Source: Prochloraceae cyanobacterium
GTDB lineage: Bacteria > Cyanobacteriota > Cyanobacteriia > Cyanobacteriales > JBFRWL01
Assembly: GCA_051439565.1 (NCBI GenBank)
Contig: JBFRWL010000139.1
Span: forward strand, 1 to 33,456
Length of the DNA: 33,456 nucleotides
Direction: 5' to 3'
Positions 3,001 to 32,897 of this stretch are shown piece by piece. The translations under genes and the position numbers were made by a program. The number at the start of each line of letters is the position of its first letter. Positions within the stretch are counted from its first letter, which is position 1. The notes under the pieces were generated by a model. The model saw nothing but the letters and a program-made list of their open reading frames with translations. It was not told where the DNA came from and searched no databases.

Positions 3001-3540
3001 GCTCGCATAGCTATTAAACAAAGGAACATCCGTTGGAGTTATCTGAGTTTGGGATTTGTCGATGGCGCGATCGTCCGGTTTCTTTCTGAACAAGGCTTGA
3101 CAGATATTCTCTGGTATGCTCTTATTTTAGGCTTATCTTTACTCTACATTGCCCAATTCGATCCCAGTTTAATTAAACCCGCACAAAAGCAACAGCGTCA
3201 TTATCTACGTATTTTGGCTGTGGGAATTATCTGCTTAGTAGCTTTAAGTTTTCATCAAGATACAGGTGGAATTATTCCTAGCATAATTAGTTTGGTGACA
3301 ATTTTTGCCGGCTTGGGTTTGCGAATTAGAGCTTTTCTCTTTGTCGGTACTGTTACCTTTATTCTGACTATTTTTTATCAATTAGTAGTTTTAATTTTTA
3401 CCTACTCTTTTTTAAAGTGGGTAATTGGTTTAATTGCTGGAATTGTTATGATTAGCATTGCTGCTAATTTTGAAAAACGAAGCGAGCAAATAATTACTAT
3501 TTTACAAAATTGGTTTGAAAAGTTAGGAGAATGGCAGTAA
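1..3540 (+). CDS. Very large polytopic integral membrane protein, function unknown (5' end runs off the window)
   Basis: Frame 1 is open from base 1 (VLAATQWQRFPAAGQYGILW...) into the listed 151..3540 ORF, so the real start is upstream of the window. It has dozens of helix-length hydrophobic W/L/I/A-rich segments and in-frame HIP1 sites. I recognise no catalytic motif. Confidence 0.75.
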   Translation, partial: VLAATQWQRFPAAGQYGILWTYTLTFWGIGFWAFKQENLQLTAQTLQTISLLLMPLNFWAIDTFNLWRHPLEWLVVAIASVSLSAIYLIHNIQRQSLFVIFNYLGLCYLHWGWRFSDLPLVAVYIGAIPTTIAICFLEKRYSRESLYGNQKQRKTGKALVVFAFAVLLVRAIFVVHLPIQQLGLAVGICGWLLTQEGRREGGDKGDKEDIVASPSSSSSETSRPPTLPTLPTSSSSSPLEIIGGILLFLGWLVSVTEKFPWQATAVSGLALHFCSQRLRRYWLRRDLFAIFVIGLQGILLVVELIPVQLRQTAIGVWIQIADAGAFPDSIFSITLFPYVIFLVGLTDWLYRREKPKLAIFGEQLALLLGAILTLISWYNPTARSLNLFLSTITLAYVSDRRTPTSIFLVYFTHSTGLAAIAATIDWWFPSLTQEIWATILLVLMVAEWTISTLETSSNYQQIWYRSGWHLGFVLASVSYFLLLDPVINQNQQWGLLWLLTPLTLTVVASRREERRRINAVWFSCAALVAAQFLTFWQPGVRLVGLSFATGLMLVNTRYVRETVLAIINLGFALGFVAGLLWGQISGPDLFLVGAIAIVILWLLATWLQQYPGTFAALYAEASDGWAIFLCVVELTILTFHYLKTDFLAISPAWQYLTAPTLIGGTIIYRYWRQPDNLTVYGVGWAIETCLAEGILLFGGSNLEIATANIVLALLSLLLTNWWRSKRSSLARLSSLKQLPLIYALIGIAWRWQYFTAYTGWLTLGAAITCIAVGSRYRREKIITYLSLVGISLGCYELVIYQMLQSSGGSPADGLTILAVVAAAIALAYSFFVSWWRSRGRDTFLNLSIAEIKITAHIHWAISSILKVITAAIALESTPQLTPISIAVSLILAAYALIQGRDADTEAKGTASDWWVYAGIVEIFATTLYARLIWTELSILDPWRVILVSLVALFIYQIPWRSWGWQPTPWQRASLVIPALTALINAEDISYLSLLVVAAFYARIAIKQRNIRWSYLSLGFVDGAIVRFLSEQGLTDILWYALILGLSLLYIAQFDPSLIKPAQKQQRHYLRILAVGIICLVALSFHQDTGGIIPSIISLVTIFAGLGLRIRAFLFVGTVTFILTIFYQLVVLIFTYSFLKWVIGLIAGIVMISIAANFEKRSEQIITILQNWFEKLGEWQ
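584..716 (+). repeat. Repeat-derived purine-arm/pyrimidine-arm insertion translated in-frame inside the membrane-protein CDS
   Basis: A purine-rich arm (ggagggaaggagagaggggggagacaagggagacaaggaag) is followed by a small central hairpin (ggaag..cttcc) and a pyrimidine-rich arm (cttccccatcctcctc...ctcccacactccccacactccc...cctctcc). It translates as QEGRREGGDKGDKEDIVASPSSSSSETSRPPTLPTLPTSSSSSPLE between two hydrophobic helices. Bases 602-620 are the exact reverse complement of 21378-21396. The reverse complement of 670-692 contains the 14-mer gggagtgtggggag also found at 19902-19915. Confidence 0.55.
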
Positions 3541-4011: not shown

Positions 4012-5349
4012 ATGAAAACATCTGAGTCGAAACCAAATTATAAATTTGAAGATGTTTCCCCACTACCACAGCGCCAGAAAAAACTATGGCTGACCTTATC
4101 AGTTACTCTCCTACTCGCAGGAGGTACTTGTCTTTTGTGGTATCTACTAACCCCTAAAAACCCCTCACAAGTAGCTACAGAGGTTTCCCGTCCTCGTCCA
4201 GTAGAGACAGCAACCTTGAATAAAGGCGATGGAACCAGGCGAGTTATTCTCATTGGACAGGTAGAGGCTAGTAAAATTGCTACCATTCGCGCTCAGACAA
4301 CAGGTTTAGTTGAGCAAGTCTTAATCAGAGAAGGCGATCGCGTTACCAAAGGTATGACCATTGCCATTCTCGAAAATACCGACCAGCAATTAGCTCTCTC
4401 TCAAGCCAAGGCACGACTGGCAACCGAACGTAGCAAGCTAACTCGCCTAGAACTTGGTACCCGCAAAGAAATCATCCAACAGCGTCGCGCTGCTCTGAGT
4501 GCCGCCAAAGCTAGAGAAAAAGAAGCCCTCGACAACCTAGAACGAATTTCCAGTTTGGTAACGGAAGGAGCTTTATCACAGCGAAGCCTGGTAGAAGCAA
4601 GAGCAACTGTCGATACAGCTAAAGGAGAACGTTTAGAAGCTGCTGCTGCTCTTGCCGAGGCGATCGCCGGATCGCTCCCAGAAGATATAGCTGCTCAGAA
4701 AGCTGTAGTAGAAGCAGCTCAAGCAGCAGTCAAACAAGCCAAACTAGAATTCGATCGTACCCGCATCCAAGCCTTATCAGATGGCGTAGTCCAGTCTCGC
4801 TTAGCCACTCGGGGAGACTACCTCGAAGTTGCCGATCCAGTACTGACCTTAGTTGACAGCAGGCAACTAGATATCTTCTTAGAATTACCAGAAAAACTAA
4901 GCGGTCAAATAAGACCGGGGAAAACAGTAATACTTTCCTCTCGGAATCTACCCAACTGGCGAGATAGCGCCACCATAACCGGAGTAATTCCCAGTACTGA
5001 GGAGGGTTCTCGCCGACAGTTAGTGCGCATAAGTATAGATAACCCACCTGAAGAGTTAATCTCGGGAATGGCAGTTCGAGGGGAACTACAAATACCTCTT
5101 GCTTATGACAGCTTTATCATTTCTAGAGATGCTTTAGTCCGGCGAGGGAATAAGTGGTTAGTTTTCACCGTCACTAACGGTCAGGCTCAACAGATAGAGG
5201 TCAAACTAGTTGCAGATATAGGCAGTGAAGTAGCCATTGCTTCCGAGCAGTTGCAAATCGGTCAACAAGTAGTAGTGCAAGGCGGCGATGCTTTGAGTGA
5301 CGGCGCGTCAGTGAAAGCGAAGCAGCGCTATTTTGAACAAGACAATTAG
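4012..5349 (+). CDS. Efflux RND transporter periplasmic adaptor (HlyD/AcrA membrane-fusion family)
   Basis: It has a single N-terminal TM anchor (LWLTLSVTLLLAGGTCLLWYLL) and barrel/lipoyl-like segments flanking a long Ala/Glu/Arg/Gln coiled coil (ALSQAKARLATERSKL ... AAQAAVKQAKLEFDRTRI). It sits upstream of an RND pump gene on the same strand. Confidence 0.88.
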   Translation: MKTSESKPNYKFEDVSPLPQRQKKLWLTLSVTLLLAGGTCLLWYLLTPKNPSQVATEVSRPRPVETATLNKGDGTRRVILIGQVEASKIATIRAQTTGLVEQVLIREGDRVTKGMTIAILENTDQQLALSQAKARLATERSKLTRLELGTRKEIIQQRRAALSAAKAREKEALDNLERISSLVTEGALSQRSLVEARATVDTAKGERLEAAAALAEAIAGSLPEDIAAQKAVVEAAQAAVKQAKLEFDRTRIQALSDGVVQSRLATRGDYLEVADPVLTLVDSRQLDIFLELPEKLSGQIRPGKTVILSSRNLPNWRDSATITGVIPSTEEGSRRQLVRISIDNPPEELISGMAVRGELQIPLAYDSFIISRDALVRRGNKWLVFTVTNGQAQQIEVKLVADIGSEVAIASEQLQIGQQVVVQGGDALSDGASVKAKQRYFEQDN

Positions 5350-5354
5350 GTTGA

Positions 5355-5384
5355 AAAGGGCAGGAGGCAGAGGGCAGAAGGAAA
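5355..5384. repeat. Purine-rich GGCAGRRG-type dispersed motif, copy directly after the adaptor stop codon
   Basis: aaagggcaggaggcagagggcagaaggaaa closely resembles gaaggcaggaggcagatggcagagggtagaagg at 23902-23933, which also lies directly after a stop codon. Confidence 0.5.
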
Positions 5385-5445
5385 TTATCAAAAGGGGACT
5401 TACCCCCCCTGATAAAAAGCCACTGAATCTAGATTCAGTTGGGAA

Positions 5446-5519
5446 GAGTTAGGTATTTTATTAGAGTTAGCTGTTCCCTCTCTCAACTATTTTTTAATTA
5501 ATTTGATCGACCTACTTAT
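5446..5519. repeat. Short, degenerate copy of the MITE-like element seen at 21307-21451
   Basis: ctctctcaactattttttaattaatttgatcgacctacttat aligns at roughly 40/44 with cttctctcaatcattttctaattaatttgaccgacctacttat at 21408-21451. Both share gttagctgtt upstream. The left end (gagttaggta) is a degenerate version of ataagtaggt. Confidence 0.45.
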
Positions 5520-5904
5520 TTGTAGCAATAATCTAGTCAAATGATTTGACACTCTCCTTACTAAAGCAACGCTTCCCTAGGAGATTCTTAAGACATAAGA
5601 ATGCTTAAAGGGTTAACCAAAAACCCGCTACTCTCTCTCCCCTTTCTGGGTCTGAGCATACTTTTAAATTTAGATATCGTTAGCTATGTTTAACTGTTTT
5701 GTTTCGCTCAATCTGAAAGCTTTGCTGGTAAAGGCTAGGTCTAGAGTGCATGGCACCGAGATTGGGATTTCCCCGGCCTACCTTTTAACTAGAGCGTCCA
5801 ATTACCGGGAGTCTCACCCTCAATCCAAAAATTTCTGCGAGTGGTTAACTATTTGTAGTTAACCAGATTTCACTCACGGCTAAAGCCGTTCGACGATTGT
5901 TCCT

Positions 5905-5925
5905 CCGCGAGTGGAAACATCGCGG
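5905..5925 (+). terminator. GC-rich stem-loop followed by UUUCU, 20 nt upstream of the RND start (candidate terminator/attenuator)
   Basis: ccgcga-gtggaaaca-tcgcgg is a perfect 6-bp stem followed by tttctc. Two further perfect hairpins precede it: ggttaact-atttgt-agttaacc at 5843-5864 and acggc-taaa-gccgt at 5876-5889. Confidence 0.3.
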
Positions 5926-5945
5926 TTTCTCAAATACGTATCATC

Positions 5946-8900
5946 ATGAATATAATCGAGACTGCCGTTCGCTGGCGACATGGCACCTTTGTATTGTTTT
6001 GTATCTTGGCATTATTTGGTATTTTATCTCTCTTCCAATTGCCGCTAGAACTGCGACCAGGAGGCGAGCGACCAGAAATCACCATTACTACCTCTTATCT
6101 GGGTGCTTCTCCCGCTGAAGTGGAAGACTTAATTAGTCGTCCCATTGAAGAGAAACTTGAAGAAGTCAAAGGGGTAAAAGAGATTAAAAGTAGCAGTAGT
6201 TCTGGCAGAAGCAGTATTACCCTAGAATTCAACTGGGATACGGACATTAATCAGCGTCTAGTAGATGTCATTAATAAATTAGGTCAAGTAGAAGCCTTAC
6301 CTCCAGAAGCAGGGGAGTCCGACGTAGAAATTGTTAGCGATAGCAGTCGTCCGATGATCTGGGTAGCTCTCGTTCCGAAACCAGGTTATATTGCTGATGA
6401 CTATCACTATCGCGATTTAGTTGACGATATAATCGTTCCTCGTTTCCGACAAGTTCAAGGGGTAGCTCAATTTATAGTTTCTGGTGGTAGAGAAAGGGAA
6501 GTAGAGGTAGTTGTTGACCCCAAAGCTCTGGCTGATCGCAATCTTACCATCACAGACGTACTCAATACCCTGCGCAATAACAATCGGGATATTCGCGGCG
6601 GTCCCTTAGTTCTAGGACGGCGAGAATACCGAGTACGCACCGTCAGTCGCGCCACCGATGTTAAGCAACTAGAAGGGTTGGTTCTGCGCCGCGATCGCTC
6701 GGGAACTGTTTTCTTAGGGGATGTAGCCCAAGCGCGCATAGGTCGCAAGATTCAAGACCGCGCTCTCTTGCGTAACGACGAGCCAGCAGTTGCCATGGGT
6801 ATTATTCGACAGGTTGGTAGTAATGTTCCAGAAATTTCTCAAGGGATACGAGAAGCCTTAGTAGAATTAGAAGCCCGTTTCGATCGCCAAGGTGAAGGTG
6901 TTGCCTTTGATATTACCTATGACGAGAATGATTATATTAACCGCTCCATATCCTTCGTACAAACTAACTTAATTATTGGTGCGATTCTGGCAGCTACCAT
7001 TTTACTCTTATTTCTCGGTTCTCTGCGCACAGTAGCGGTCATTGCCATTACTATTCCCACTACTATAGTTACTGTATTTATTGTCTTCTTGTTGCTTGAT
7101 CGCAGCCTTAACGTTATTAGTCTGGCAGGGTTAGCTTTTGCCGTAGGCATGGTGGTAGACAACGCGATCGTGGTACTAGAAAACGTCTTTACCCACATGC
7201 AACGGGGAAAAACCACTCTACAAGCTGCCATTGACGGCACAGTTGAAGTTGGAGGCGCGATGTTGGCCTCTACCCTAACCACGGTAGCCGTATTTGCTCC
7301 CATTGTCTTAGTCACAGGAGAGCCAGGACAGCTATTTTTTGATATTGGCATTGCCCTCTCAGCAGCAGTAATTTTTTCTTTATTTGCTGCTATCACTCTG
7401 GTGCCGATGCTGTGCGGACTGTTTCTCAACCAGGCAGAAGCGCAGCAGGCACTTTGGCGAGGAGAGTACCGAGGTGGCAATTGGTTGGAGCAATCTGTGG
7501 CTAAGACTTCAGCACTTTTTCAACTTTTCCAAACTAAATTAGAGCAATTCTTGCTAGCTACAGTCAGTTGGTCTCTAGGTAGAGGAAAACTGGGTCGTCG
7601 TTTGATGGTGCTTGCCATTCCCCTAGGACTGCTCGTGGTTAGTTTTCAACTCCTCCCCCCTGTTGATTATTTACCAGAAGGAAACCGCAATCTAATTCTT
7701 TGGTTAGCTGAGCCTTTTCCGGGTACCAGCATTCCAGAAGCAATTAGGCTTTCAGCCGGACCAAGAAGCTTTATTAGAGAACAACCAGAAGTAAAACGAA
7801 CTTTGTATGTTCACAGAGGAGCATTTAAGGCGATCGCCGCTTTTCTTGACCCAGATGAAGCTACAGGTAGTAAGCTAGACAATCTAGTCAATAAAATGCG
7901 TGGGGTTAGCAAAGATTATCCAGGATATCGCTTTTTAGTCCCCATACGCATCCCGATTTTCCGCAATCCTGGCAAAGAGTTTGAGGTTCAACTTATTGGC
8001 AACGACCTCGATCGATTAAACCAACTGCAGCGACAACTCAGGGAAAAATTAAGTCTTCTCGAAGGCGTGCAGAACGTTCGTTCTAATTTCGTCACTGGTG
8101 CCCCAGAAATCCAAATTATCCCCAAGCGGGAACGTCTAGCAGAGGTAGGTCTATCGGAAGCAGAGATCGGGCAGATAGTAGAAGCTGCGCTGGGAGGTTT
8201 GAGAGGTTCCAAATTTATCGATCGTAGCCGAGAATTAGATGTTACGGTTAAGCTACAAAATACTTTTGTACAGACACCGGAAGACCTAAGGCAACTTGTT
8301 ATCTACGGCGGCAATGGCAAGCGGGTCCAATTAACAGACGTGGCAGAGGTGGTGGAAACTACCGGACCAGATACAATTAACCACGTGGATCTAGAGCGTT
8401 CCGTCACTTTAACTGTTAGGGTAGCGCGGGAGGCTGCTTTAGGGGCATTATTGGAGCAAACTAGGCAACAAATTCTCGAACCGCTAGAATCGACTTTACC
8501 TGCTGGTTTCCGGCTAGAATTAGCTGGCTCTGCGGACGTGTTATCTGAGACCTTGTTCCAGTTAGGAACGACTTTTGTACTCTCCTTAGTTATTACCTAC
8601 CTGCTATTGGTTGCTTTATACCGTTCTTTTAGCTACCCATTTCTGATTATGGCAACTGTACCGATGGGTATAAGTGGGGCGCTGTTGAGTTTGGTGATTG
8701 CTAATTCAATTCCTGGCGTAGTGGTACCGCTGGATATGATTACTAGCTTGGGATTCGTAATTTTGACTGGGGTGGTGGTTAATAATGCGATTCTGCTGGT
8801 AGACCGAGCTTTGCAGTTACAACAGGAAGGAAAGAGCTATGACGATTCTCTGTATAGTGCGGTGCGCGATCGCCTCCGTCCCATTTTTATGTCCGCTGGT

Positions 8901-9137
8901 ACCAGCGTCTTAGGAATTTTACCTCTAGCTCTAATACCAGGTCAAGGTGCTGAACTGTATCAAGGTCTTGGCATTACTTTGGCTGGAGGTTTGGCTTTAT
9001 CTACTATCCTGACACCAACTGTAATCCCAGCTTTGATGGGTTTACTGCGAGATTTCCACTCAAGGAAACCAAGAGCAAGAAAGGTAGATATTAACACGGC
9101 TAAAAGTAAATTGGATTCTACATTCACCGACACTTAA
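5946..9137 (+). CDS. RND efflux transporter permease (AcrB/AcrD/AcrF-CzcA superfamily)
   Basis: The 1063-aa protein has an N-terminal TM1 (FVLFCILALFGILSLFQLP), two large soluble loops, and the duplicated conserved TM blocks AFAVGMVVDNAIVVLENV and VILTGVVVNNAILLVDRA typical of RND pumps. Confidence 0.93.
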   Translation: MNIIETAVRWRHGTFVLFCILALFGILSLFQLPLELRPGGERPEITITTSYLGASPAEVEDLISRPIEEKLEEVKGVKEIKSSSSSGRSSITLEFNWDTDINQRLVDVINKLGQVEALPPEAGESDVEIVSDSSRPMIWVALVPKPGYIADDYHYRDLVDDIIVPRFRQVQGVAQFIVSGGREREVEVVVDPKALADRNLTITDVLNTLRNNNRDIRGGPLVLGRREYRVRTVSRATDVKQLEGLVLRRDRSGTVFLGDVAQARIGRKIQDRALLRNDEPAVAMGIIRQVGSNVPEISQGIREALVELEARFDRQGEGVAFDITYDENDYINRSISFVQTNLIIGAILAATILLLFLGSLRTVAVIAITIPTTIVTVFIVFLLLDRSLNVISLAGLAFAVGMVVDNAIVVLENVFTHMQRGKTTLQAAIDGTVEVGGAMLASTLTTVAVFAPIVLVTGEPGQLFFDIGIALSAAVIFSLFAAITLVPMLCGLFLNQAEAQQALWRGEYRGGNWLEQSVAKTSALFQLFQTKLEQFLLATVSWSLGRGKLGRRLMVLAIPLGLLVVSFQLLPPVDYLPEGNRNLILWLAEPFPGTSIPEAIRLSAGPRSFIREQPEVKRTLYVHRGAFKAIAAFLDPDEATGSKLDNLVNKMRGVSKDYPGYRFLVPIRIPIFRNPGKEFEVQLIGNDLDRLNQLQRQLREKLSLLEGVQNVRSNFVTGAPEIQIIPKRERLAEVGLSEAEIGQIVEAALGGLRGSKFIDRSRELDVTVKLQNTFVQTPEDLRQLVIYGGNGKRVQLTDVAEVVETTGPDTINHVDLERSVTLTVRVAREAALGALLEQTRQQILEPLESTLPAGFRLELAGSADVLSETLFQLGTTFVLSLVITYLLLVALYRSFSYPFLIMATVPMGISGALLSLVIANSIPGVVVPLDMITSLGFVILTGVVVNNAILLVDRALQLQQEGKSYDDSLYSAVRDRLRPIFMSAGTSVLGILPLALIPGQGAELYQGLGITLAGGLALSTILTPTVIPALMGLLRDFHSRKPRARKVDINTAKSKLDSTFTDT

Positions 9138-25394: not shown

Positions 25395-26066
25395 TCAGGC
25401 GGCCTTCCTATTAGACCAATCGCGAGGAAGACGAGGGGAAGTAGGATCTAGTGTTAGTAAATGCTCGATATTGCGTACAATTGTATTGGAGATAAAATCT
25501 AGGGGCAGGTCGTTGAGATCGCGTCCGAAAGGCTCTTCAATCTCAGCGCCAATTTCATTGATACTGAGTATAACTAAACTAATGAAAGCCATGGCTGGAC
25601 AAGTCCACCAGCCTATACTTTGAATTAATTCAAAGGGCAGCAGTAAGAAGTAAACTATTAAGAGTATATTAAGAACGATCGTGTAAATGATGGGTACTGG
25701 CGTTTTCAAAATACGTTCGCAGCCACCCAGGATATCTACCATATCATCTATGTCTGCCTGCAAAGTATTAAGCTGAAAAACATTGATTTTTTTCTGGTTA
25801 TACTGTTGCTGCAAGTAATCAGCGAGCCAGAAAGCAATTTCTAGAGGAGCGTGTTGTACTTCTTGCAACCTCTGATACTGCCACTGTGACATTAATGGCA
25901 TTAATTCAGAATTGACTGGTTCGCTTCGCAGATGATATTTCATCGCTACAGCAAAGGCAGGAACTAGTTGTGCCGCCGCCCGTTTTTCTTCTTTATCTCT
26001 TGATGAGCGTTCTTCAAGGATCTGTGGAAGGTTTTTCTGGTGACCGGAGCCAAATGATTTTTCTGA
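25395..26066 (-). pseudogene. Bestrophin/YneE (UPF0187) family anion-channel homolog lacking the N-terminal ~100 residues
   Basis: GGCERILKTPVPIIYTIVL...LLLPFELIQ...EIEEPFGRDLNDLPLDFI aligns with E. coli YneE AGCERIAYTPIPFAYTLIL...EELEDPFGTENNDLPLDAI as recalled. The homologous frame stays open 41 codons upstream of the first ATG (25943) and then hits a stop at 26067-26069. The two N-terminal TM helices and the GFRNN..Y.R..EAR block are absent. Confidence 0.6.
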
Positions 26067-26487: not shown

Positions 26488-27150
26488 TTATCCTGAAAAT
26501 TGCCATTTAATTAATAAAAAACTTCCTGTTAAAAACCCAATTATCAGTCCTAAAGAATGACTTAACATACTCACCTGAGGCATAATACCTAGAAGTTTTG
26601 GCATAGCCAGATCGCAAGCAAATTGCATCGCAACTATAAATAGTGAAACCTGAAAACGCTTAGCAGCAAGACGAGATTTTTTTGTCAGCCACTGCCTCAT
26701 GAAAATAGCAGAAATCACCCCAATTAAACCCATAATTGCAGCAGATGCCCCAACCAAAATTTGATTTTCAGCTCCCATCTTCAGTGCGATGAGCGAGAAA
26801 GCTAACATTGAACCTATGCCACTGATAAAGTAGGCAAGAAGATATCTACCAATGCCCAGATTCAGTTCAACAAATCTACCAAGAAAATAAAGACCGAGCA
26901 TATTAGTAAATAGGTGTAGCCAATCAAAGTGAAGAAAATTTGCATTCAATAATCGCCACCACTGTCCCGACCACACTTCTTGGGGGTCTAAAGCACCTAG
27001 GAGATATAAAGTGTTTATATTTTCGCTCCCTCCGCTCATTATCTGAAGGAAAAAAAATAGTAAATTTAAGCTAATTAATCCGTGAGTGGCACGAGCTTCC
27101 AGAAGAGCTTCACCAATAATAATATTTGTTTTTTTTCCAGCTCTTATCAT
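26488..27150 (-). CDS. Rhomboid family intramembrane serine protease
   Basis: It shows the HFDWLHLFTNM (H..H..N) block, the catalytic-Ser motif GASAAIMGLIG, and the His in LSHSLGLIIGF, across about 6 TM helices. Confidence 0.85.
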   Translation of the reverse strand: MIRAGKKTNIIIGEALLEARATHGLISLNLLFFFLQIMSGGSENINTLYLLGALDPQEVWSGQWWRLLNANFLHFDWLHLFTNMLGLYFLGRFVELNLGIGRYLLAYFISGIGSMLAFSLIALKMGAENQILVGASAAIMGLIGVISAIFMRQWLTKKSRLAAKRFQVSLFIVAMQFACDLAMPKLLGIMPQVSMLSHSLGLIIGFLTGSFLLIKWQFSG

Positions 27151-27202
27151 TATTAACTCTGGTTTTTAGTTATTTTTTTCAAGACAAGGATTTAGTGAAA
27201 TG

Positions 27203-27229
27203 AATCTCCCGACCAAGAATCGGGAGATT
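27203..27229 (-). terminator. Perfect 10-bp stem-loop between the grrM/transposase-remnant region and the rhomboid gene
   Basis: aatctcccga-ccaagaa-tcgggagatt forms the stem. No clear U-tract follows on either strand, so its function is uncertain. Confidence 0.3.
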
Positions 27230-27539
27230 GTTAAGAGGAGAATAGCTCATTAAGCAACTCAATTATTATTTACTTTAATTTAGCTGGATTCAGGCTAATT
27301 GTTTGATTTAGTTAGTCATTTTTCTCTTCCTAAAGATTGCTTTGTTTATCTCTGCAACTAATTTATACGAATTAACGGAATAGCCGCCAGGGTTTTTACT
27401 GAACTTAATCTGATTTTTATAATATCTTTAAATAATCCTCAAAAAACAAGTATGCTAGAAGAAAGATGCCAGCAAAAACCATCTGACATCAGAGCAAATA
27501 CTGCTCGGTTAAGCTCAAAAACATCCGTTCAGGAGGAAT

Positions 27540-27755
27540 TTAGAATTTAGAATTAAAAATGCAAAATTCAAACATTTTAAAGAGACAAATTTTGAATTGG
27601 AGCGAAGCGACTTGACGAAAAGCTTGCATCAAAACATAAGTAATTGAAGATAGCCATAATCTTAATTGATTACTCTCAAATGTTTGAATCGCCAATGCCA
27701 TTTTTTGTTGTAACCCTAGTTTGAACCATGCCCACTTTTGCAAGAATTCTATTGT
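27540..27755 (-). pseudogene. C-terminal fragment of a DDE transposase (IS4/IS1380-like)
   Basis: IEFLQKWAWFKLGLQQKMALAIQTFESNQLRLWLSSITYVLMQAFRQ resembles the conserved C-terminal ...K.gl.l......F.aNq.RL.L..lAY.L....R block of IS4/IS1380-type transposases as recalled. No N-terminal or catalytic part is present, and the frame is closed by a stop 25 nt from the grrM stop. Confidence 0.4.
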
Positions 27756-27780
27756 TTATTACCTTTTGTTGCTCAGGAAA

Positions 27781-28986
27781 CTATAACCCAAAAGACTGTT
27801 CTAACTCTTCGAGAACAATATCCGTTACTATCTGAATTCGATATTGGCAAGCCTGGGTTTCGGTGGAAGAAAAAGTGCCATTTTCCCAGTATTTGTTACT
27901 TCCAGCACCGCCGCCACAAACGCCAAAATAGTCACAGGTTTGACGGCAAAGATTAACTCCTGCGGTCATATCTCCGTAAACCTTTTGGAACTTCTCACTG
28001 TAGCAGGCTGACTCAAAAGTATCATCTAGGACGTTACCGAGGATAAAATCGCCGTAGGGTTTAGTTTTCACGGACAGTAGTTCAGGGTCGAAGGTAGCAA
28101 AATTACCCTGGTGATCAATGCTGACGATCGCAAAGGGAGTATTCATATCGGTAGCCGAGAGTCTTTGATCGTTATAAATGAGACTGCAAATAGACTCGAA
28201 CTCCCGCACTACCAACTCGCCTTTGGTTTGAGTCGTCAATTCCCAAAACCGCTTCATAAAAGCACGATAACGGGTTTCAGTGCCCTGACGCTGCAAAGAA
28301 GATGATTGATGTACTCCTTCAGTTTCTTCGAGGTTAAAAGCAACATCGGTAATACCATTGTCCCAGAAAAACTGAAACATCTCATCTGGGTAATCCAGGG
28401 AATCTTGGGTAATGACGGCAATGACATTAAAGGAAATATTGTTTTTGTGGAGGCAATCAATCCCCCGCATCACGCTGGCATGACTGCCTAATCCCCTCCG
28501 AGTTTGGCGATGACGATCGTGGATAAAGGAAGGACCATCAATACTAAGACCAACGTGAATATTATTCCTCTTAAAACACTCACACCAGGCGGGAGTAATC
28601 AGGGTACCATTGGTTTGAATAGAGTGATAAACTGGGCGCTGTTGAATATTATACTTGCGACTAGCCACTTCAATACGCTCGAAAGCCTGATCGTAAAAGG
28701 AAATTGGTACAGCAAGTGGTTCCCCTGCATGCCAGCAAACGTCAACAAATTCTCCTAAGAAGCGACTGGTAAAGATAGTTTTAAAGATCGGTTCAATCAA
28801 GTCGAGAGATAGTTGTTTTTTTAAGTGGCGATCGGGCAAATAGCAATAATCACAGTTGAGATTGCAAAAGGAAGTTGGCTGGAGTACCACCAGACCTATA
28901 GGACCAAAATTTACAAGCTCGATAGATCGATCTCCGGCATCGTGGTTGGTTGTCCCCGTTGCCATAGCTGAGATTAGTTGATTCAT
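27781..28986 (-). CDS. grrM: Radical SAM/SPASM peptide maturase, GRRM-system type (cyclophane-forming GrrM/OscB-like)
   Basis: It has the CX3CX2C radical SAM motif in VLQPTSFCNLNCDYCYL and a C-terminal SPASM Cys cluster (CRQTCDYFGVCGGGAGSNKYW...ETQACQYR). Overall it resembles anSME-like maturases, but it sits 90 nt downstream of a Gly-rich repeat peptide gene rather than a sulfatase. Confidence 0.88.
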   Translation of the reverse strand: MNQLISAMATGTTNHDAGDRSIELVNFGPIGLVVLQPTSFCNLNCDYCYLPDRHLKKQLSLDLIEPIFKTIFTSRFLGEFVDVCWHAGEPLAVPISFYDQAFERIEVASRKYNIQQRPVYHSIQTNGTLITPAWCECFKRNNIHVGLSIDGPSFIHDRHRQTRRGLGSHASVMRGIDCLHKNNISFNVIAVITQDSLDYPDEMFQFFWDNGITDVAFNLEETEGVHQSSSLQRQGTETRYRAFMKRFWELTTQTKGELVVREFESICSLIYNDQRLSATDMNTPFAIVSIDHQGNFATFDPELLSVKTKPYGDFILGNVLDDTFESACYSEKFQKVYGDMTAGVNLCRQTCDYFGVCGGGAGSNKYWENGTFSSTETQACQYRIQIVTDIVLEELEQSFGL

Positions 28987-29076
28987 TTTTCCCTAACACC
29001 TTTGTTCGCCAGTCAGTTCACAAATCAAATGCGATCGCTAACCCTTTATTTTCCTACCTCCAGTATTTTGCAGGGA

Positions 29077-29463
29077 CTACCAGCGGTTGTAGAAACGCCC
29101 CCCGTCTCCCCAGCGACGATTAAGAAATCCGCCTCCATTTACCCAGCCACGACGATTAACAAACCCTCCGCCGCCACGACGATTGAGAAACCCTGCAACA
29201 ATTCGAGGGTCTACTTGTCTCTCATCAGCTTCTGAGTGCTGAGTTTCTCGCTGTTTCACCGCTTTTGTAATTCTAGAGAGACGATTCTCAATGTTTGGAG
29301 AAGTCCAAGCTGAGGTTGACTCCGAGATGGTAGCATTGGCTGTAGAGGCTTTGAGAACAGACACAGCCAGCAAAAAGCCCATAAAACTAATTCTTGTCGT
29401 GATTGACAAAGCTCGTTCTCCTTTGAGGAAAGTCTCTTCAGAACTGTAGCAAAAAATAGTCAT
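29077..29463 (-). CDS. grrA: rSAM-associated Gly/Arg-rich repeat precursor peptide (GRRM system)
   Basis: The C-terminal 38 aa are GFLNRRGGGGFVNRRGWVNGGGFLNRRWGDGGRFYNRW, encoded by imperfect ~27-30 nt DNA repeats (cgacgattRaRaaaYcc x3). An N-terminal hydrophobic segment (MGFLLAVSVLKASTANA) is present. An alternative start is Met28 at 29382. The gene is co-directional with and immediately upstream of grrM. Confidence 0.8.
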   Translation of the reverse strand: MTIFCYSSEETFLKGERALSITTRISFMGFLLAVSVLKASTANATISESTSAWTSPNIENRLSRITKAVKQRETQHSEADERQVDPRIVAGFLNRRGGGGFVNRRGWVNGGGFLNRRWGDGGRFYNRW

Positions 29464-29568
29464 CCTGAAAAATTTTGGTTAATTTTTCTAAAATTCTGTT
29501 TCCTCTCTTGCTGAGAATAGTAACAATTGTTTTGCTGTCGTTATTGACCCAGTCTCAATTTAGAGAAA

Positions 29569-30459
29569 ATGTATAAAAAATTATCGATTGCTCTGCTTAG
29601 TCTCATAGCTCCTCTCATGCTACCCGCTCCGAGCTGGGCGGAAACGGTAATGGAAAGAGTGGCAAAAACCGGAGTTCTCACAGTTAATACGAGCACTAAT
29701 TTGGTTCCCTATACCTATGTGAACGATAAAGGGGAGTTAGTCGGTTATTCCATAGATCTATTAGAACTGATTCGAGAACAACTCGAACAAGAGTTGGGGA
29801 GAAAAGTCGAACTAGACTTTCTTACTGATAATAGTTTTGAGGACAGAATTCAAAAAATTATCAGCAGAGAAGCTGATATTTCCTGCGATACAATTTTTAC
29901 CTGGCAGCGAGATAAGTTTGTTGACTTTTCCATTAGCTATAGCGTTTCCGGTATCAAGTTGCTTGTCAAGAAAGGAAGTCCTTTGGGGTCATCGGAATCT
30001 TTACAGAACAAGCGGATTGGTTTAGTTAAGACTTTTTCTCTTCCACGGGCAATTGAAGCGATCGAGTCTCGGGCAAAGATAGTACCACTCAGAAATCTTG
30101 AGGAGGGTTTTTCCGCACTCGATCGAGGAATCATTGATGGATTTGCCTACGATGCTATTATTCTCGAAGGAATGAGACAAACCAGGAGAAATCCCGATGC
30201 TTATCAGATAGTGCCGGAGCAATCATATTTTAAGCATGGCGTTGCCTGTATGGTGCCGCAAAATGATTCCAGTTTCAAGCATCTGGTGGACTACACCACT
30301 ATCAAGCTAATGCAGGGATACGTGTTTAACGAGTCTCCCTATGTGGATATCATCAATCGTTGGTTTGGTCCAAAAGGAATTGTACTCCTCAATCGAGCTA
30401 ATATTCGTGATTTTTTCAAGACTATGATCATGACTCGGGAGCAGATCGCTCCTAACTAG
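29569..30459 (+). CDS. Orphan family-3 (amino-acid type) extracellular substrate-binding protein, GRRM-associated
   Basis: It has a signal peptide MYKKLSIALLSLIAPLMLPAPSWA and a type 3 SBP fold pattern (GVLTVNTSTNLVPYTY...GYSIDL...DISCD...). It is divergent from grrA across 105 nt, and no ABC permease or ATPase gene is nearby. Confidence 0.82.
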   Translation: MYKKLSIALLSLIAPLMLPAPSWAETVMERVAKTGVLTVNTSTNLVPYTYVNDKGELVGYSIDLLELIREQLEQELGRKVELDFLTDNSFEDRIQKIISREADISCDTIFTWQRDKFVDFSISYSVSGIKLLVKKGSPLGSSESLQNKRIGLVKTFSLPRAIEAIESRAKIVPLRNLEEGFSALDRGIIDGFAYDAIILEGMRQTRRNPDAYQIVPEQSYFKHGVACMVPQNDSSFKHLVDYTTIKLMQGYVFNESPYVDIINRWFGPKGIVLLNRANIRDFFKTMIMTREQIAPN

Positions 30460-30634
30460 TAAACGTAGGCATAAATTAAGACCACCATTATGCAGTTAAA
30501 GCTTTGCTTGTAAGTCTACTTGAACGGTTTTCCTATCAAGTTGTTATTAGACCTCTCCGGAAATTAAATATTGACCCTGATTGCACAAGGTTTTGATTTT
30601 CTTTTTCGGAGATGTCTATTGTAGTATGCATGAT

Positions 30635-31693
30635 TTAAGTTTTATCGATTAACTCTATACTCTCACTAGATTCAAGGAGTATCTGTGGATTAGCTTGTTG
30701 AGGAGAAACTACATTGACAGTTCCTTGAACTTTTAGGTTTAATTGAGGATTAATAAGCATATTGCGTCCCTTAACAATAGTCTGAGAATGTTTCTGCCAA
30801 ATTTTAGCCAGCTTTTCTCTTATTTGGCGAAATTTCTCACTATCTTGGAAATTAACTAAGGTAAAATTACGTTTGGTGCCCCATGTTTCTTTTTCAATTG
30901 CAAATACATCAAACTTAAGCTGAGGACTTTGTGGGAATTTTACTAACCGACCTTCCATAACCGTTTTTTTCCCGTGAAGCGAAGCAATGCGTTCTAATAC
31001 TTCCAGTGGGGGGTCTACTTCAGGATCTAAGTTTAAGTGAAGAGGTAGCCCGGGTTTTTCCTGGCGACGGAAGTGAACTTTGACAATATCACCTCGATAA
31101 AGTTCTTTTGTATAGGCTGCTTGTTTCACAAAATCTGGAAGAATAGCTTCTCCGTACTCTAGGACTAGAATCGTTCCTTGTGCGTCAATAGCGTGAACTT
31201 TTCCGATGAATTCATTTTTTCCTTTTAAAGCCAAAGGTAGCTTAACTTCTCTTTCGTAGTCAGATAGATTTTTGGGTTGAGGCCATGATTCAAAGACAGA
31301 TATCTTCTTTACATGAATATGCTTTTGGGGACTGGGATTAGTAAGAAATTCTCCTTTAAGACAAATTCGATCGTGTCGATTCAAGGAATTAAGGGTTTCC
31401 AAAACTTTAGCATTTTCAGGGACAAGTGAATAATTTATAGCCTGAAAAAAATTCTTTGGGTCGCGAACTGTCATCAAAAAAAGTCCGGCTTCGGGAACGG
31501 CTCCGTGTATTCTTCCTATTAAACCATTGTTACTCAGCTCTTCTTCTAAAACTCCTGGTTCTAGTCCAATGTATCTTTCAGGAATGTATTTACAGGGGGT
31601 TTCCTTTGTCAGTCCTATTCCTATCCATGAAAGCCAGAGGCTCAAAAATAAGGCTAAAAATCCGGCTGTTATTTCGCTCTTAGAGAACCACAT
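30635..31693 (-). CDS. Hypothetical N-terminally anchored protein (no recognisable family)
   Basis: A 352-aa ORF with one N-terminal TM (ITAGFLALFLSLWLSWIGIGL) and a Lys/Glu-rich soluble domain. It lies in AT-rich sequence, and I recognise no motifs. Confidence 0.55.
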   Translation of the reverse strand: MWFSKSEITAGFLALFLSLWLSWIGIGLTKETPCKYIPERYIGLEPGVLEEELSNNGLIGRIHGAVPEAGLFLMTVRDPKNFFQAINYSLVPENAKVLETLNSLNRHDRICLKGEFLTNPSPQKHIHVKKISVFESWPQPKNLSDYEREVKLPLALKGKNEFIGKVHAIDAQGTILVLEYGEAILPDFVKQAAYTKELYRGDIVKVHFRRQEKPGLPLHLNLDPEVDPPLEVLERIASLHGKKTVMEGRLVKFPQSPQLKFDVFAIEKETWGTKRNFTLVNFQDSEKFRQIREKLAKIWQKHSQTIVKGRNMLINPQLNLKVQGTVNVVSPQQANPQILLESSESIELIDKT

Positions 31694-31871: not shown

Positions 31872-32897
31872 TTAAGCTTTAACTACTTGAGCTTGAGAAG
31901 TTTCCCTAGACTGTGCCACAGGATCAAATTTAACGGCGCGGAACATTCCAAATCTGCAAAGTCCAGCACCAAACCCTAATCGCATTAACAACATAGTGGG
32001 TACTTCTCTCAATGATTTAATAAATCCTGAGAAGCCAAACTTAATTATTCCTTGAGGTCGAACTATTCCTTGCCAAATCGAATCAAGCCAAGAAGGGAGG
32101 GTTTCTTGCGTCCAATCTGCTGTTACTACTTCTCCTGCCACTAATCCAGTCTCTCCTATCAGTTCGGAAAAGACTTCGATACTAGAAAAAGCTGGATGTG
32201 ACCACTGGTCTAGAAGTTGACGCATTAGGGGTTTTTCCCAGAAATTGAGAGGAATTTGGCGATCGTCTCGCTGATTCCAGTCAGCGACGACTAAGATTCC
32301 ACCAGGCTTTAATACTCGCATCATTTCTTGGGCGTACTTGGCTTTATCTCCCATATGAGGTCCAGCCTCAATCGACCAAACTACATCGAAACTATTATCT
32401 GGGAAAGACAGTGCCAGGGCATCATCTACTTGAAATTTGGCACTAACTTTTTCAGGTGTCAATTCTTGAGCGCGTTGGACTTGTTTCGGGCTAATCGTAA
32501 TGCCTTTAACCTCAAATCCGTAATCTTTGGCTAAGATACGGCTGCTGCCACCAATCCCACAGCCTACATCTAGAACAGTAGTCTTGGGAGGTAACTTATC
32601 TAAGCCACCCCATTTGACCATTTCGTGTACAAAGTCAGATTTAGCTGTCAAAAAATCCTTACGCTGCGGTGGTGAACCATAATGACCTAAGTGGATATGT
32701 TCGCCCCAGTAAAATTCTAAAATACCGTCTTGAGTCCATTCGTCATAGGAATTGGCTACCGTATCAGACGATTCATAACTGCGAGCAGTGATTAGATAAA
32801 GCGCGATGCCAATCATTAATAGTGAAATCAGAAATCCCAAGGCGTAATATATGTACATTAAAATCAAAATACTTTTTAATATTTGTGTTATAAACAT
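31872..32897 (-). CDS. MPBQ/MSBQ methyltransferase (tocopherol/plastoquinone pathway; Synechocystis Sll0418 ortholog)
   Basis: It is near-colinear with Sll0418 as recalled: YESSDTVANSYDEWTQDGILEFYWGEHIHLGHYG, the SAM motif VLDVGCGIGGSSRILAKDYGF, VVWSIEAGPHM, GGILVVADWNQRDDRQIPLNFWEKP, and LCRFGMFRAV. The true start may be an internal Met. Confidence 0.88.
   Translation of the reverse strand: MFITQILKSILILMYIYYALGFLISLLMIGIALYLITARSYESSDTVANSYDEWTQDGILEFYWGEHIHLGHYGSPPQRKDFLTAKSDFVHEMVKWGGLDKLPPKTTVLDVGCGIGGSSRILAKDYGFEVKGITISPKQVQRAQELTPEKVSAKFQVDDALALSFPDNSFDVVWSIEAGPHMGDKAKYAQEMMRVLKPGGILVVADWNQRDDRQIPLNFWEKPLMRQLLDQWSHPAFSSIEVFSELIGETGLVAGEVVTADWTQETLPSWLDSIWQGIVRPQGIIKFGFSGFIKSLREVPTMLLMRLGFGAGLCRFGMFRAVKFDPVAQSRETSQAQVVKA

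What the first reader, a model, noticed from the sequence alone, without database searches (positions are those of the whole stretch)
29077..29200. Core peptide carries five aromatic-X-Asn triads in a Gly/Arg repeat scaffold encoded by tandem DNA repeats
The last 38 residues read GFLNRRGGGGFVNRRGWVNGGGFLNRRWGDGGRFYNRW. They contain FLN, FVN, WVN, FLN and FYN, five copies of an aromatic-X-Asn unit. This is the three-residue pattern (aromatic ring to beta-carbon of residue 3) reported for cyclophane-forming rSAM enzymes. The DNA shows three imperfect repeats (cgacgattaagaaatcc / cgacgattaacaaaccc / cgacgattgagaaaccc), so repeat number can probably expand or contract by slippage or recombination, giving a tunable multi-macrocycle product. 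The peptide ends in NRW with no follower sequence.
Basis: partly seen in the sequence, partly recalled or inferred. Interest (0 to 1): 0.65.

Follow-up and report, generated by a model that had tools for sequence, protein, structure and literature searches.

The report
Known cyanobacterial cyclophane peptide precursor (GrrA)

Summary
ORF 29077-29463(-) ends in GFLNRRGGGGFVNRRGWVNGGGFLNRRWGDGGRFYNRW. It has five aromatic-X-Asn triads, against about 1 expected from composition (P~1e-4).

It is a member of a curated, named family:
- The peptide is GrrA/OscA1 (TIGR04260, 60.8 bits, cutoff 31).
- The next gene is the radical SAM maturase GrrM/OscB (TIGR04261, 633 bits, cutoff 310).
- The divergent gene is the orphan binding protein GrrP (TIGR04262).

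GrrM is 66% identical to OIP69445.1, the OscB shown experimentally to make Trp-C7 to Asn/Asp-Cβ and Phe-C4 to Asn-Cβ three-residue cyclophanes.

- W-G-D is a probable sixth site. WGDGGRF is shared with an OscA-type peptide next to OscB, and this Trp is at least 90% conserved.
- The DNA repeats are degenerate, and Tandem Repeats Finder reports none. Close relatives nevertheless differ by 9-nt indels that each add or remove one W-V-N triad, and one relative has a 98%-identical 36-nt tandem array. Motif number does vary (3-9 across the family).
- The likely start is TTG 29409, giving 110 aa.

Less expected: every homologue starts with a signal-peptide-like segment, as does GrrP. This suggests export of the modified peptide.

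Verdict: a new member of a known kind, of low to moderate interest.

The parts
29077..29409 (-). grrA, the precursor peptide gene. Probable product is 110 aa from TTG 29409. The mechanical ORF extends to ATG 29463, giving 128 aa.
   Evidence: TIGR04260 GrrA/OscA1 scores 60.8 bits against a cutoff of 31, and the profile match begins at ORF residue 20. Homologues start M/V/L-x-I-T-T-R at this point. GGAG lies at 29421-29418, 8 nt upstream of the TTG.
29332..29409 (-). Residues 1-26, MSITTRISFMGFLLAVSVLKASTANA. A signal-peptide-like segment: basic residue, hydrophobic stretch, then A-N-A.
   Evidence: The 11-residue Kyte-Doolittle maximum is 2.54. All 114 homologues analysed have such a stretch (minimum 1.4) followed by a small-x-small site, and 106 have a basic residue before the stretch. 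AF2 gives a helix here at pLDDT about 72. This is a heuristic; no SignalP was run.
29245..29292 (-). Residues 40-55, IENRLSRITKAVKQRE. The conserved leader helix, a candidate recognition element for GrrM.
   Evidence: R43 is invariant, and E41, L44 and R46 are at least 90% conserved in alignment A2. This is the best-predicted part of the AF2 model (pLDDT about 76, helix 39-61). The recognition role is inferred.
29080..29193 (-). Residues 73-110, the Gly/Arg-rich core GFLNRRGGGGFVNRRGWVNGGGFLNRRWGDGGRFYNRW. Net charge is +7.
   Evidence: AF2 predicts it as disordered (pLDDT below 50).
29182..29190 (-). F74-L-N76, predicted Phe-C4 to Asn-Cβ cyclophane.
   Evidence: F-x-N is the commonest motif type in the family (457 instances). 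Chemistry is from PMC11002830.
29155..29163 (-). F83-V-N85, predicted Phe to Asn cyclophane.
   Evidence: N85 is at least 90% conserved.
29137..29145 (-). W89-V-N91, predicted Trp-C7 to Asn-Cβ cyclophane. This triad is present or absent as a 9-nt indel among close relatives.
   Evidence: W-x-N occurs 168 times in the family.
29119..29127 (-). F95-L-N97, predicted Phe to Asn cyclophane.
29104..29112 (-). W100-G-D102, a probable sixth cyclophane (Trp-C7 to Asp-Cβ).
   Evidence: W100 is at least 90% conserved. W-x-D occurs 108 times in the family against 1 for F-x-D. WGDGGRF is identical in the OscA-type peptide OIP69447.1, where W-G-D is the only aromatic-x-Asp motif. OscB is reported to cross-link Trp to Asn or Asp.
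29086..29094 (-). F106-Y-N108, predicted Phe to Asn cyclophane. This is the terminal, invariant motif.
   Evidence: G104, F106 and N108 are invariant in A2.
27781..28986 (-). grrM, the radical SAM/SPASM-type cyclophane-forming maturase. It lies 90 nt downstream of grrA on the same strand.
   Evidence: TIGR04261 scores 633 bits against a cutoff of 310. Pfam Radical_SAM matches. C41x3C45x2C48 is invariant in 77/77 sequences. It is 66% identical to OscB OIP69445.1.
29569..30459 (+). grrP, an orphan periplasmic substrate-binding-like protein, transcribed divergently from grrA.
   Evidence: TIGR04262 scores 245 bits against a cutoff of 190. Pfam SBP_bac_3 matches. It is present in 57 of 80 GrrM loci. 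All 55 homologues with an N-terminus available have a signal-like stretch ending ...A/ETV. No ABC permease or ATPase gene lies next to it.

Best explanation
The region is the core of a GrrA/OscA1-type triceptide precursor, in a complete grrP / grrA-grrM cassette of a cyanobacterium.

**Steps inferred from homology to a tested system**
- GrrA is made as a peptide of about 110 aa. It has a hydrophobic N-terminus, a conserved amphipathic leader helix (IExRLxRI...) and a disordered Gly/Arg-rich tail.
- In the cytoplasm, GrrM uses its [4Fe-4S]/SAM site to abstract a hydrogen from the β-carbon of residue 3 of each aromatic-X-Asn/Asp motif.
- The carbon radical adds to the ring of residue 1 (Trp C7 or Phe C4, para). 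Loss of H restores aromaticity. Each event gives a strained three-residue cyclophane and a mass change of -2 Da.
- Six motifs are predicted substrates: FLN, FVN, WVN, FLN, WGD and FYN. The fully modified peptide should therefore be about -12 Da, not -10.

**Step inferred from sequence only**
- The N-terminal segment is a Sec-type signal peptide, so the stapled peptide is exported. GrrP, which is also signal-bearing, acts on it or binds it outside the cytoplasm.

**Shown by comparison**
- The number of motifs changes between relatives by in-frame gain or loss of whole triads and by duplication or homogenisation of 27-36-nt units.
For: **Family models**
- All three curated NCBIfam models are passed: GrrA 60.8 (cutoff 31), GrrM 633 (cutoff 310), GrrP 245 (cutoff 190).
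- GrrM has the invariant CX3CX2C motif plus conserved C-terminal cysteines. Its nearest solved relatives are anSME and the triceptide synthase ChlB.

**Link to the tested enzyme**
- GrrM is 66% identical over 382 residues to OIP69445.1. The review PMC11002830 names this as the OscB that forms Trp-C7 to Cβ(Asn/Asp) and Phe-C4 to Cβ(Asn) cyclophanes in E. coli co-expression with NMR.

**Motif conservation**
- 84% of core aromatic residues in 114 homologues have N or D at +2. The types are FxN 457, WxN 168, WxD 108, FxD 1 and YxN 0, which matches the reported chemistry.
- The W-x-[DN]-G-G-x-F-x-N block is the most conserved part of the core.

**Gene order**
- My motif filter found a GrrA-like ORF in 59 of 80 GrrM loci, in all but one directly upstream of GrrM on the same strand (L056 has it downstream, after GrrP). 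Five more were found by eye. GrrP is present in 57 of 80 loci.

**Export**
- Signal-like N-termini occur in 114/114 GrrA and 55/55 GrrP homologues.

**Motif-number variation**
- Two 9-nt indels, each equal to one W-V-N triad, separate the window, L081 and L084. L081's GrrM is 95% identical to the window's.
- L081 has a 36-nt tandem repeat of 2.6 copies at 98% identity.
Against: - No mass spectrometry or expression data exist for this peptide. No RNA run holds the locus, and the window is known only from marine sediment metagenomes.
- 66% identity to OscB does not prove that every motif is modified. F-Y-N has a bulky middle residue, and W-G-D rests on one review sentence plus conservation.
- The primary papers (Nguyen 2020; Purushothaman 2024) were not held and could not be read.
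- The signal peptide is a heuristic call. The hydrophobic segment could instead be a membrane anchor or an enzyme-recognition element.
- No protease or exporter is conserved next to the cassette, so the mature form is unknown.
- The AF2 model is of low confidence (mean pLDDT 55).
Confidence: 0.85

Rival explanations
1. GrrM modifies only some of the motifs, or installs a different modification on some of them (for example hydroxylation or an ether link). The product would then differ from six C-C cyclophanes. The reader's count of exactly five Asn-based rings is one such case.
For: Related enzymes (XncB, DarE) give ether or oxygenated products when residue 3 is changed (PMC11851443). Some triceptide synthases modify motifs in an order-dependent way (PMC12912966). 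W-G-D and F-Y-N differ from the other motifs.
Against: OscB is reported to cross-link Trp to Asn or Asp, and Phe to Asn. WGDGGRF is identical in the OscA-type peptide beside OscB. The W of W-G-D and the F and N of the last motif are the most conserved core positions, as expected for modified residues.
Confidence: 0.12
2. The tail is an ordinary unmodified secreted Gly/Arg-rich low-complexity protein, and its position next to a radical SAM gene is coincidental.
For: The peptide has a signal-like N-terminus and a low-complexity tail. One homologue carries a weak Pfam glycine-rich-protein hit (PF07172).
Against: The peptide-enzyme pairing recurs in at least 59 of 80 loci across many cyanobacterial genera and in Eremiobacterota. 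The aromatic/+2 Asn register is kept while the spacers vary. A homologous pair has been shown to react.
Confidence: 0.03
3. On the evolutionary sub-claim: motif number changes by replication slippage on the DNA repeats seen in this window. The alternative is unequal recombination or gene conversion between units plus small triad-sized indels.
For: Relatives with 4, 5 and 6 aromatic-X-Asn triads exist at about 91% DNA identity. L081 carries a near-perfect 36-nt tandem array on which slippage could act.
Against: In this window the repeats share only short exact matches (about 11 nt), have irregular spacing of 36 and 27 nt, and are not detected by TRF. The indels actually observed are 9 nt, not a repeat unit. 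Units within one genome resemble each other more than their orthologues do: the middle residue is V,V,V in L081, A,A,L in L084 and L,V,L here. That pattern points to homogenisation by recombination.
Confidence: 0.3

Closest known systems
OscA/OscB of Oscillatoriales cyanobacterium CG2_30_40_61 (OIP69447.1 / OIP69445.1), the characterised GRR-type triceptide system
   Same: - The same three NCBIfam families are present.
- The maturases are 66% identical.
- The precursor layout is the same: signal-like N-terminus, IExRLSRIT leader helix, and a Gly-rich core ending WGDGGRF-x-N.
- The gene order grrA then grrM, with grrP adjacent, is the same (L021).
   Different: - The precursors are only 43% identical, and that only over the leader.
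- This core is Phe-dominated and Arg-rich (FLN, FVN, FLN, FYN; net charge +7). The OscA-type core has more Trp motifs (WGN, WRN) and few Arg.
- L021 carries two precursor genes and this window has one.
- This peptide has not been tested.
XyeA/XyeB (XncA/XncB) triceptides of Xenorhabdus/Yersinia/Erwinia
   Same: The chemistry is the same: radical SAM formation of a three-residue cyclophane between an aromatic ring and the β-carbon of residue 3, including Phe-C4 to Asn.
   Different: The enzyme family is different. The window's GrrM scores 61 bits on TIGR04496, whose cutoff is 450. XncB links Trp at C6, not C7, and uses Arg or Asn at residue 3. Its precursors are short and are not Gly-rich repeat proteins.
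ChlB (PDB 9gm3), a multiple-cyclophane triceptide synthase
   Same: It is a radical SAM enzyme that makes several cyclophanes on one precursor. It is the closest solved triceptide enzyme (E = 4.6e-16). It shares the C-x2/3-C-x5-C-G-G-G motif in which anSME's fourth Cys is replaced.
   Different: The sequence relationship is distant. ChlB acts on Tyr/His-type motifs (YDR), and its cassette is different.
Darobactin/dynobactin maturases DarE/DynA
   Same: They are related radical SAM/SPASM enzymes that cross-link aromatic side chains to β-carbons of nearby residues in a ribosomal peptide.
   Different: Scores are far below the family cutoffs: DynA 143 against 450, and DarE 79 against 650. These enzymes make fused bicyclic products with ether links from a single short core, not a string of separate three-residue rings.

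Membership tests
GrrA/OscA1 family cyclophane-containing RiPP precursor (NCBIfam TIGR04260) | Profile HMM score above the curated cutoff | tested here: met
   60.8 bits against a cutoff of 31, E = 1.7e-16. The match covers profile positions 2-118 of 118.
GrrA/OscA1 family cyclophane-containing RiPP precursor (NCBIfam TIGR04260) | Gly-rich C-terminal half with repeated Phe/Trp-X-Asn(Asp) motifs | tested here: met
   There are six motifs in 38 residues, 12 of which are Gly. The register is conserved in 114 homologues.
GrrA/OscA1 family cyclophane-containing RiPP precursor (NCBIfam TIGR04260) | Encoded next to a GrrM/OscB radical SAM gene, usually with the orphan binding protein GrrP | tested here: met
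   grrM lies 90 nt downstream on the same strand and grrP is divergent. The same arrangement holds in most of 80 loci.
GrrA/OscA1 family cyclophane-containing RiPP precursor (NCBIfam TIGR04260) | The peptide actually carries aryl-Cβ cross-links (-2 Da per motif) | not testable with these tools
   This needs co-expression followed by MS/MS and NMR. No RNA or proteomic data were found.
GrrM/OscB cyclophane-forming radical SAM/SPASM maturase (NCBIfam TIGR04261) | Profile HMM score above the curated cutoff | tested here: met
   633.1 bits against a cutoff of 310, over the full-length profile 1-363.
GrrM/OscB cyclophane-forming radical SAM/SPASM maturase (NCBIfam TIGR04261) | CX3CX2C radical SAM cluster motif | tested here: met
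   C41, C45 and C48 (FCNLNCDYC) are conserved in 77 of 77 aligned homologues. Pfam PF04055 matches.
GrrM/OscB cyclophane-forming radical SAM/SPASM maturase (NCBIfam TIGR04261) | C-terminal SPASM-type cysteines for auxiliary Fe-S clusters | tested here: inconclusive
   C347, C351, C357 and C380 (plus C135) are invariant, and C328 is present in 54 of 77. The position of anSME's fourth Cys in CX2CX5CX3C is Ala361 here, and Ser in ChlB. The number of auxiliary clusters cannot be told from sequence.
GrrM/OscB cyclophane-forming radical SAM/SPASM maturase (NCBIfam TIGR04261) | Close relationship to the experimentally characterised OscB | tested here: met
   66% identity and 81% positives over 382 residues without gaps to OIP69445.1. 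The accession is named as OscB in PMC11002830.
GrrP orphan substrate-binding-like protein (NCBIfam TIGR04262) | Profile score above cutoff, and no adjacent ABC permease or ATPase | tested here: met
   245.3 bits against a cutoff of 190. The neighbours are an unassigned 352-aa ORF and a methyltransferase.
Other triceptide or daropeptide maturase families (XyeB, FxsB, YhhB, AmcB, DarE, DynA) | Profile score above each family's curated cutoff | tested here: not met
   Scores against cutoffs: AmcB 293/425, YhhB 155/445, DynA 143/450, FxsB 116/370, DarE 79/650, XyeB 61/450.

The most novel reading that the evidence does not exclude
GrrA may not be a classical leader/core RiPP that is cut and pumped out. 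It may instead be a Sec-exported small protein. On this reading, its N-terminal segment is a cleavable signal peptide. GrrM staples the Gly/Arg tail in the cytoplasm before translocation. The cationic, multi-cyclophane tail then works in the periplasm or cell envelope together with GrrP, as ligand and receptor or as carrier and cargo. I did not find a radical-SAM-modified peptide routed through the general secretion pathway and paired with a dedicated orphan binding protein discussed in the literature I could read.
Probability: 0.3. Interest if true: 0.55.

Novelty: new member of a known kind. Interest (0 to 1): 0.27.

Why it matters
**For the scan.** It should not rank as a discovery.

**What this member adds.**
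- Two 9-nt indels, each one W-V-N triad, separate this gene from its two close relatives (about 91% DNA identity). In the one relative whose maturase gene is available, GrrM is 95% identical. This is a natural series for asking how ring number affects function.
- It gives a correction to the expected ring count: six, including Trp-Gly-Asp.
- A signal-peptide-like N-terminus appears on every GrrA homologue examined, and on every GrrP homologue whose N-terminus was available. This bears on an open question for the family: what the mature product is, where it goes, and what it does.

From my own knowledge, not checked here: no biological activity has been assigned to GRR-type triceptides.

Tried and rejected
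- **Tandem Repeats Finder** on 28900-29500 at minimum score 30 found nothing. 'Tandem repeat' is too strong for this window.
- **Rhomboid protease** (26488-27150) as the leader protease: rejected as a conserved part of the system. It is next to GrrM in the window and in the near-identical relative L081, but in only 1 of 80 other loci.
- **The 352-aa ORF 30635-31693, the methyltransferase 31872-32897 and the bestrophin-like ORF 25395-25943** were likewise not conserved beside GrrM (0, 1 and 0 of 80 loci).
- **Promoter and terminator scan** of 27000-30600 found no more sites than in shuffles.
- **Rfam and tRNA scans** of the window found nothing.
- **RNA-seq evidence:** no run holds the locus. 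DNA runs are marine sediment metagenomes only.
- **A second grrA copy** in the window: none found.
- **Primary papers:** Nguyen 2020 (Nat Chem) and Purushothaman 2024 (ACS Chem Biol) are not held. The chemistry is cited from a review and from reference lists.
- **Literature on the GrrA signal peptide or on GrrP:** searches found nothing relevant.
- **AF2 model of GrrA:** mean pLDDT 55. I used it only to note two helices and a disordered core. I ran no fold search because the model is too poor.
- **Plus-strand ORF 28978-29235,** which overlaps the core, is treated as an antisense shadow ORF with no support.

Full report
**1. The observation**

The minus-strand ORF 29077-29463 ends in GFLNRRGGGGFVNRRGWVNGGGFLNRRWGDGGRFYNRW followed by TAG. 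The five aromatic-X-Asn triads are at these coordinates:
- FLN 29182-29190
- FVN 29155-29163
- WVN 29137-29145
- FLN 29119-29127
- FYN 29086-29094

Shuffling the 38 residues 200,000 times gives a mean of 1.02 such triads, with P(>=5) = 9.5e-5. The arrangement is not a by-product of composition.

The three quoted 17-mers are on the + strand at 29114-29130, 29150-29166 and 29177-29193. They are the reverse complement of the codons for G-F-(L/V)-N-R-R. They are not a regular tandem array:
- The spacing is 36 and then 27 nt.
- Identity falls to 60-73% when the units are extended to 30 nt.
- Tandem Repeats Finder reports nothing at score 30.

Six of eight Arg codons in the core are CGT, against 20% CGT in the window's other genes. 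This fits the units sharing a common ancestor.

**2. What it is**

NCBIfam places three adjacent genes in three families that are defined together:

| Gene | Coordinates | Family | Score / cutoff (bits) |
|---|---|---|---|
| Peptide | 29077-29463 (-) | TIGR04260, 'GrrA/OscA1 family cyclophane-containing rSAM-modified RiPP' | 60.8 / 31 |
| Maturase | 27781-28986 (-) | TIGR04261, 'cyclophane-forming radical SAM/SPASM peptide maturase GrrM/OscB' | 633 / 310 |
| Binding protein | 29569-30459 (+) | TIGR04262, 'orphan protein GrrP' | 245 / 190 |

Other cyclophane or daropeptide maturase models (AmcB, YhhB, DynA, FxsB, DarE, XyeB) score far below their cutoffs.

GrrM has the radical SAM motif C41x3C45x2C48. 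It is invariant in 77 of 77 aligned homologues, along with C135, C347, C351, C357 and C380. Its nearest solved relatives are anSME (4K37) and the triceptide synthase ChlB (9GM3).

The host is a cyanobacterium:
- The HIP1 octamer GCGATCGC occurs 21 times, against 0.22 expected.
- The named relatives are nearly all cyanobacterial.
- The sequence itself is found only in marine sediment metagenomes.

**3. Start codon and layout of the precursor**

The profile match begins at ORF residue 20, and homologues begin M/V/L-x-I-T-T-R. A TTG at 29409 is preceded by AAAGGAG with an 8-nt spacer. The product is therefore probably 110 aa, beginning MSITTRISFMGFLL....

Its layout is:
- **Residues 1-26:** a basic residue, a hydrophobic stretch and A-N-A.
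- **Residues 40-55:** a conserved helix, IENRLSRITKAVKQRE. R43 is invariant, and E41, L44 and R46 are at least 90% conserved.
- **A variable acidic linker.**
- **Residues 73-110:** the core.

AF2 gives a poor model overall (mean pLDDT 55). Its two best-predicted stretches are these two helices, and it predicts the core as disordered.

**4. Link to experiment**

The review PMC11002830 states that OscB (IPR026357, OIP69445.1) was co-expressed with its precursor in E. coli. It reports that OscB forms C7(Trp) to Cβ(Asn or Asp) and C4(Phe) to Cβ(Asn) cross-links between residues i and i+2 (citing Nguyen et al. 2020). PMC11499958 adds that the Phe rings are paracyclophanes.

A cluster look-up shows that OIP69445.1 is protein P0247, on the 61,126-nt contig that I hold as locus L021. 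The window's GrrM is 66% identical (81% positives, no gaps) to it over 382 residues.

The neighbouring peptide OIP69447.1 has the core AWGNGGGGFVNRGGGGNWRNGWGDGGRFINSR. Its only aromatic-x-Asp motif is W-G-D. The seven residues WGDGGRF are identical in the window's peptide.

**5.

They do. 140 homologues were found, and 114 cores could be analysed:
- Of 871 aromatic residues with a +2 position, 625 have Asn there and 109 have Asp.
- 625 of 723 Asn, and 109 of 144 Asp, lie two residues after an aromatic.
- The motif types are F-x-N 457, W-x-N 168, W-x-D 108, F-x-D 1 and Y-x-N 0. This is the same specificity pattern as reported for OscB.
- The middle residue varies freely (L, V, G, R, A, I and others).
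- Motifs per precursor range from 3 to 9, or 4 to 11 when Asp is counted.

In a 23-sequence alignment the invariant core positions are G104, F106 and N108, and W100 is at least 90% conserved. The terminal W-x-[DN]-G-G-x-F-x-N block is thus the family's signature. Tails after the last Asn are short (NRR, NRY, NRRY, NRF, NRW), which agrees with 'no follower sequence'.

**6. Gene neighbourhood**

I scanned one genome per species and kept 80 GrrM loci.
- My motif filter found a GrrA-like ORF in 59 of them, in all but one directly upstream of GrrM on the same strand (L056 has it downstream, after GrrP). 13 loci have two copies. Reading the rest by eye adds at least five more.
- GrrP is present in 57 loci.
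- The rhomboid protease that follows GrrM in the window (26488-27150) recurs in the near-identical relative L081, but in only 1 of 80 loci. I do not count it as part of the system.
- No conserved protease or exporter was seen.

**7. Repeat-number evolution**

Two close relatives were recovered: L081, whose GrrM is 95% identical to the window's, and L084. Their grrA DNA aligns with the window's at a mean identity of 91%. Within the core it differs by two in-frame 9-nt indels. In codon register, each indel is exactly TGG GTA AAY, one W-V-N triad inserted in a Gly spacer. The three genes therefore have 4, 5 and 6 aromatic-X-Asn triads, plus W-G-D in each.

L081 has a genuine 36-nt tandem repeat of 2.6 copies at 98% identity. 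Units within a genome resemble each other more than their orthologues do: the middle residue is V,V,V in L081, A,A,L in L084 and L,V,L here. This points to homogenisation by recombination between units.

The specific mechanism (slippage on this window's repeats) is not shown.

**8. Something the literature I could read does not discuss**

All 114 GrrA homologues have a signal-peptide-like N-terminus. Each has a hydrophobic 11-mer with mean Kyte-Doolittle of at least 1.4, followed by a small-x-small site, and 106 have a basic residue before the stretch. All 55 GrrP homologues with an available N-terminus also have one, ending ...A/ETV(I/M)E(K/R)VARTG.

A radical SAM enzyme works in the cytoplasm. 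The simplest model is modification first, then Sec export of a still-flexible stapled chain, with GrrP meeting it outside. This is inference from a heuristic, not from a trained predictor. The segment could instead be a membrane anchor or part of enzyme recognition.

**9. Verdict**

The expected ring count rises from five to six, and 'tandem DNA repeats' needs toning down. The locus is a new member of a known, curated and experimentally anchored family. It is well annotated by existing models and is not a discovery. The residual interest lies in the natural triad-number series and in the unexplored export and GrrP question.

Noticed in passing
L053:7229-7597 and L054:7305-7652: Two Microcoleaceae/Lyngbya loci have a GrrM-like enzyme (54-55% identical). 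It is preceded by a signal-bearing precursor whose tail is W-E-N repeated back to back (HWENWENWENWEN...WDNYC) with no Gly spacers. This is a distinct precursor style for the same enzyme clade.
   Followed up: no
L012, L015, L017, L022-L028, L044 (Microcystis): Microcystis genomes carry a GrrM homologue (66-67% identical), but no GrrA-like ORF and no GrrP within 8 kb on either side. Either the maturase is orphan or its precursor is encoded elsewhere.
   Followed up: partly
L046, L048, L052 (Eremiobacterota); L074 (Rhodospirillales): GrrM homologues (45-62% identical) occur outside Cyanobacteria. The Eremiobacterota precursors are long, with FRN, FKN, FHN, WKN and WRN motifs and no GrrP. No precursor was recognised in the Rhodospirillales locus.
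   Followed up: no
window 27781-28986 (GrrM residues 347-361): The SPASM-like motif reads CRQTCDYFGVCGGGA. The position of the fourth Cys of anSME's CX2CX5CX3C is Ala here and Ser in ChlB. Only C347, C351, C357 and C380 (plus C135) are invariant, which raises the question of how many auxiliary clusters the enzyme has.
   Followed up: partly
window 29031-29038, and 20 other sites: The cyanobacterial HIP1 palindrome GCGATCGC occurs 21 times, against 0.22 expected. One copy sits in the 90-nt grrA-grrM spacer. Only that one lies beyond position 22747.
   Followed up: partly
window 26488-27150 and 25395-25943: A rhomboid-family protease and a bestrophin-like protein follow grrM, here and in the close relative L081, but not in other GrrM loci. 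This looks like local synteny rather than a functional link.
   Followed up: yes
homologues such as P0039, P0054, P0060, P0076 (first motif): In one subgroup the first aromatic motif is W-x-K (WLK, WVK, WGK) instead of W-x-N. There are 31 cases of Lys at +2. Whether Lys is cross-linked is unknown.
   Followed up: no
window 151-3540: A 1129-aa ORF with no Pfam hit at E <= 1e-5. It lies upstream of an HlyD/AcrB RND efflux pair at 4012-9137.
   Followed up: no
window 30635-31693: A 352-aa ORF with a hydrophobic N-terminus and no Pfam or NCBIfam match. It lies next to grrP but is absent from all 80 other GrrM loci.
   Followed up: partly
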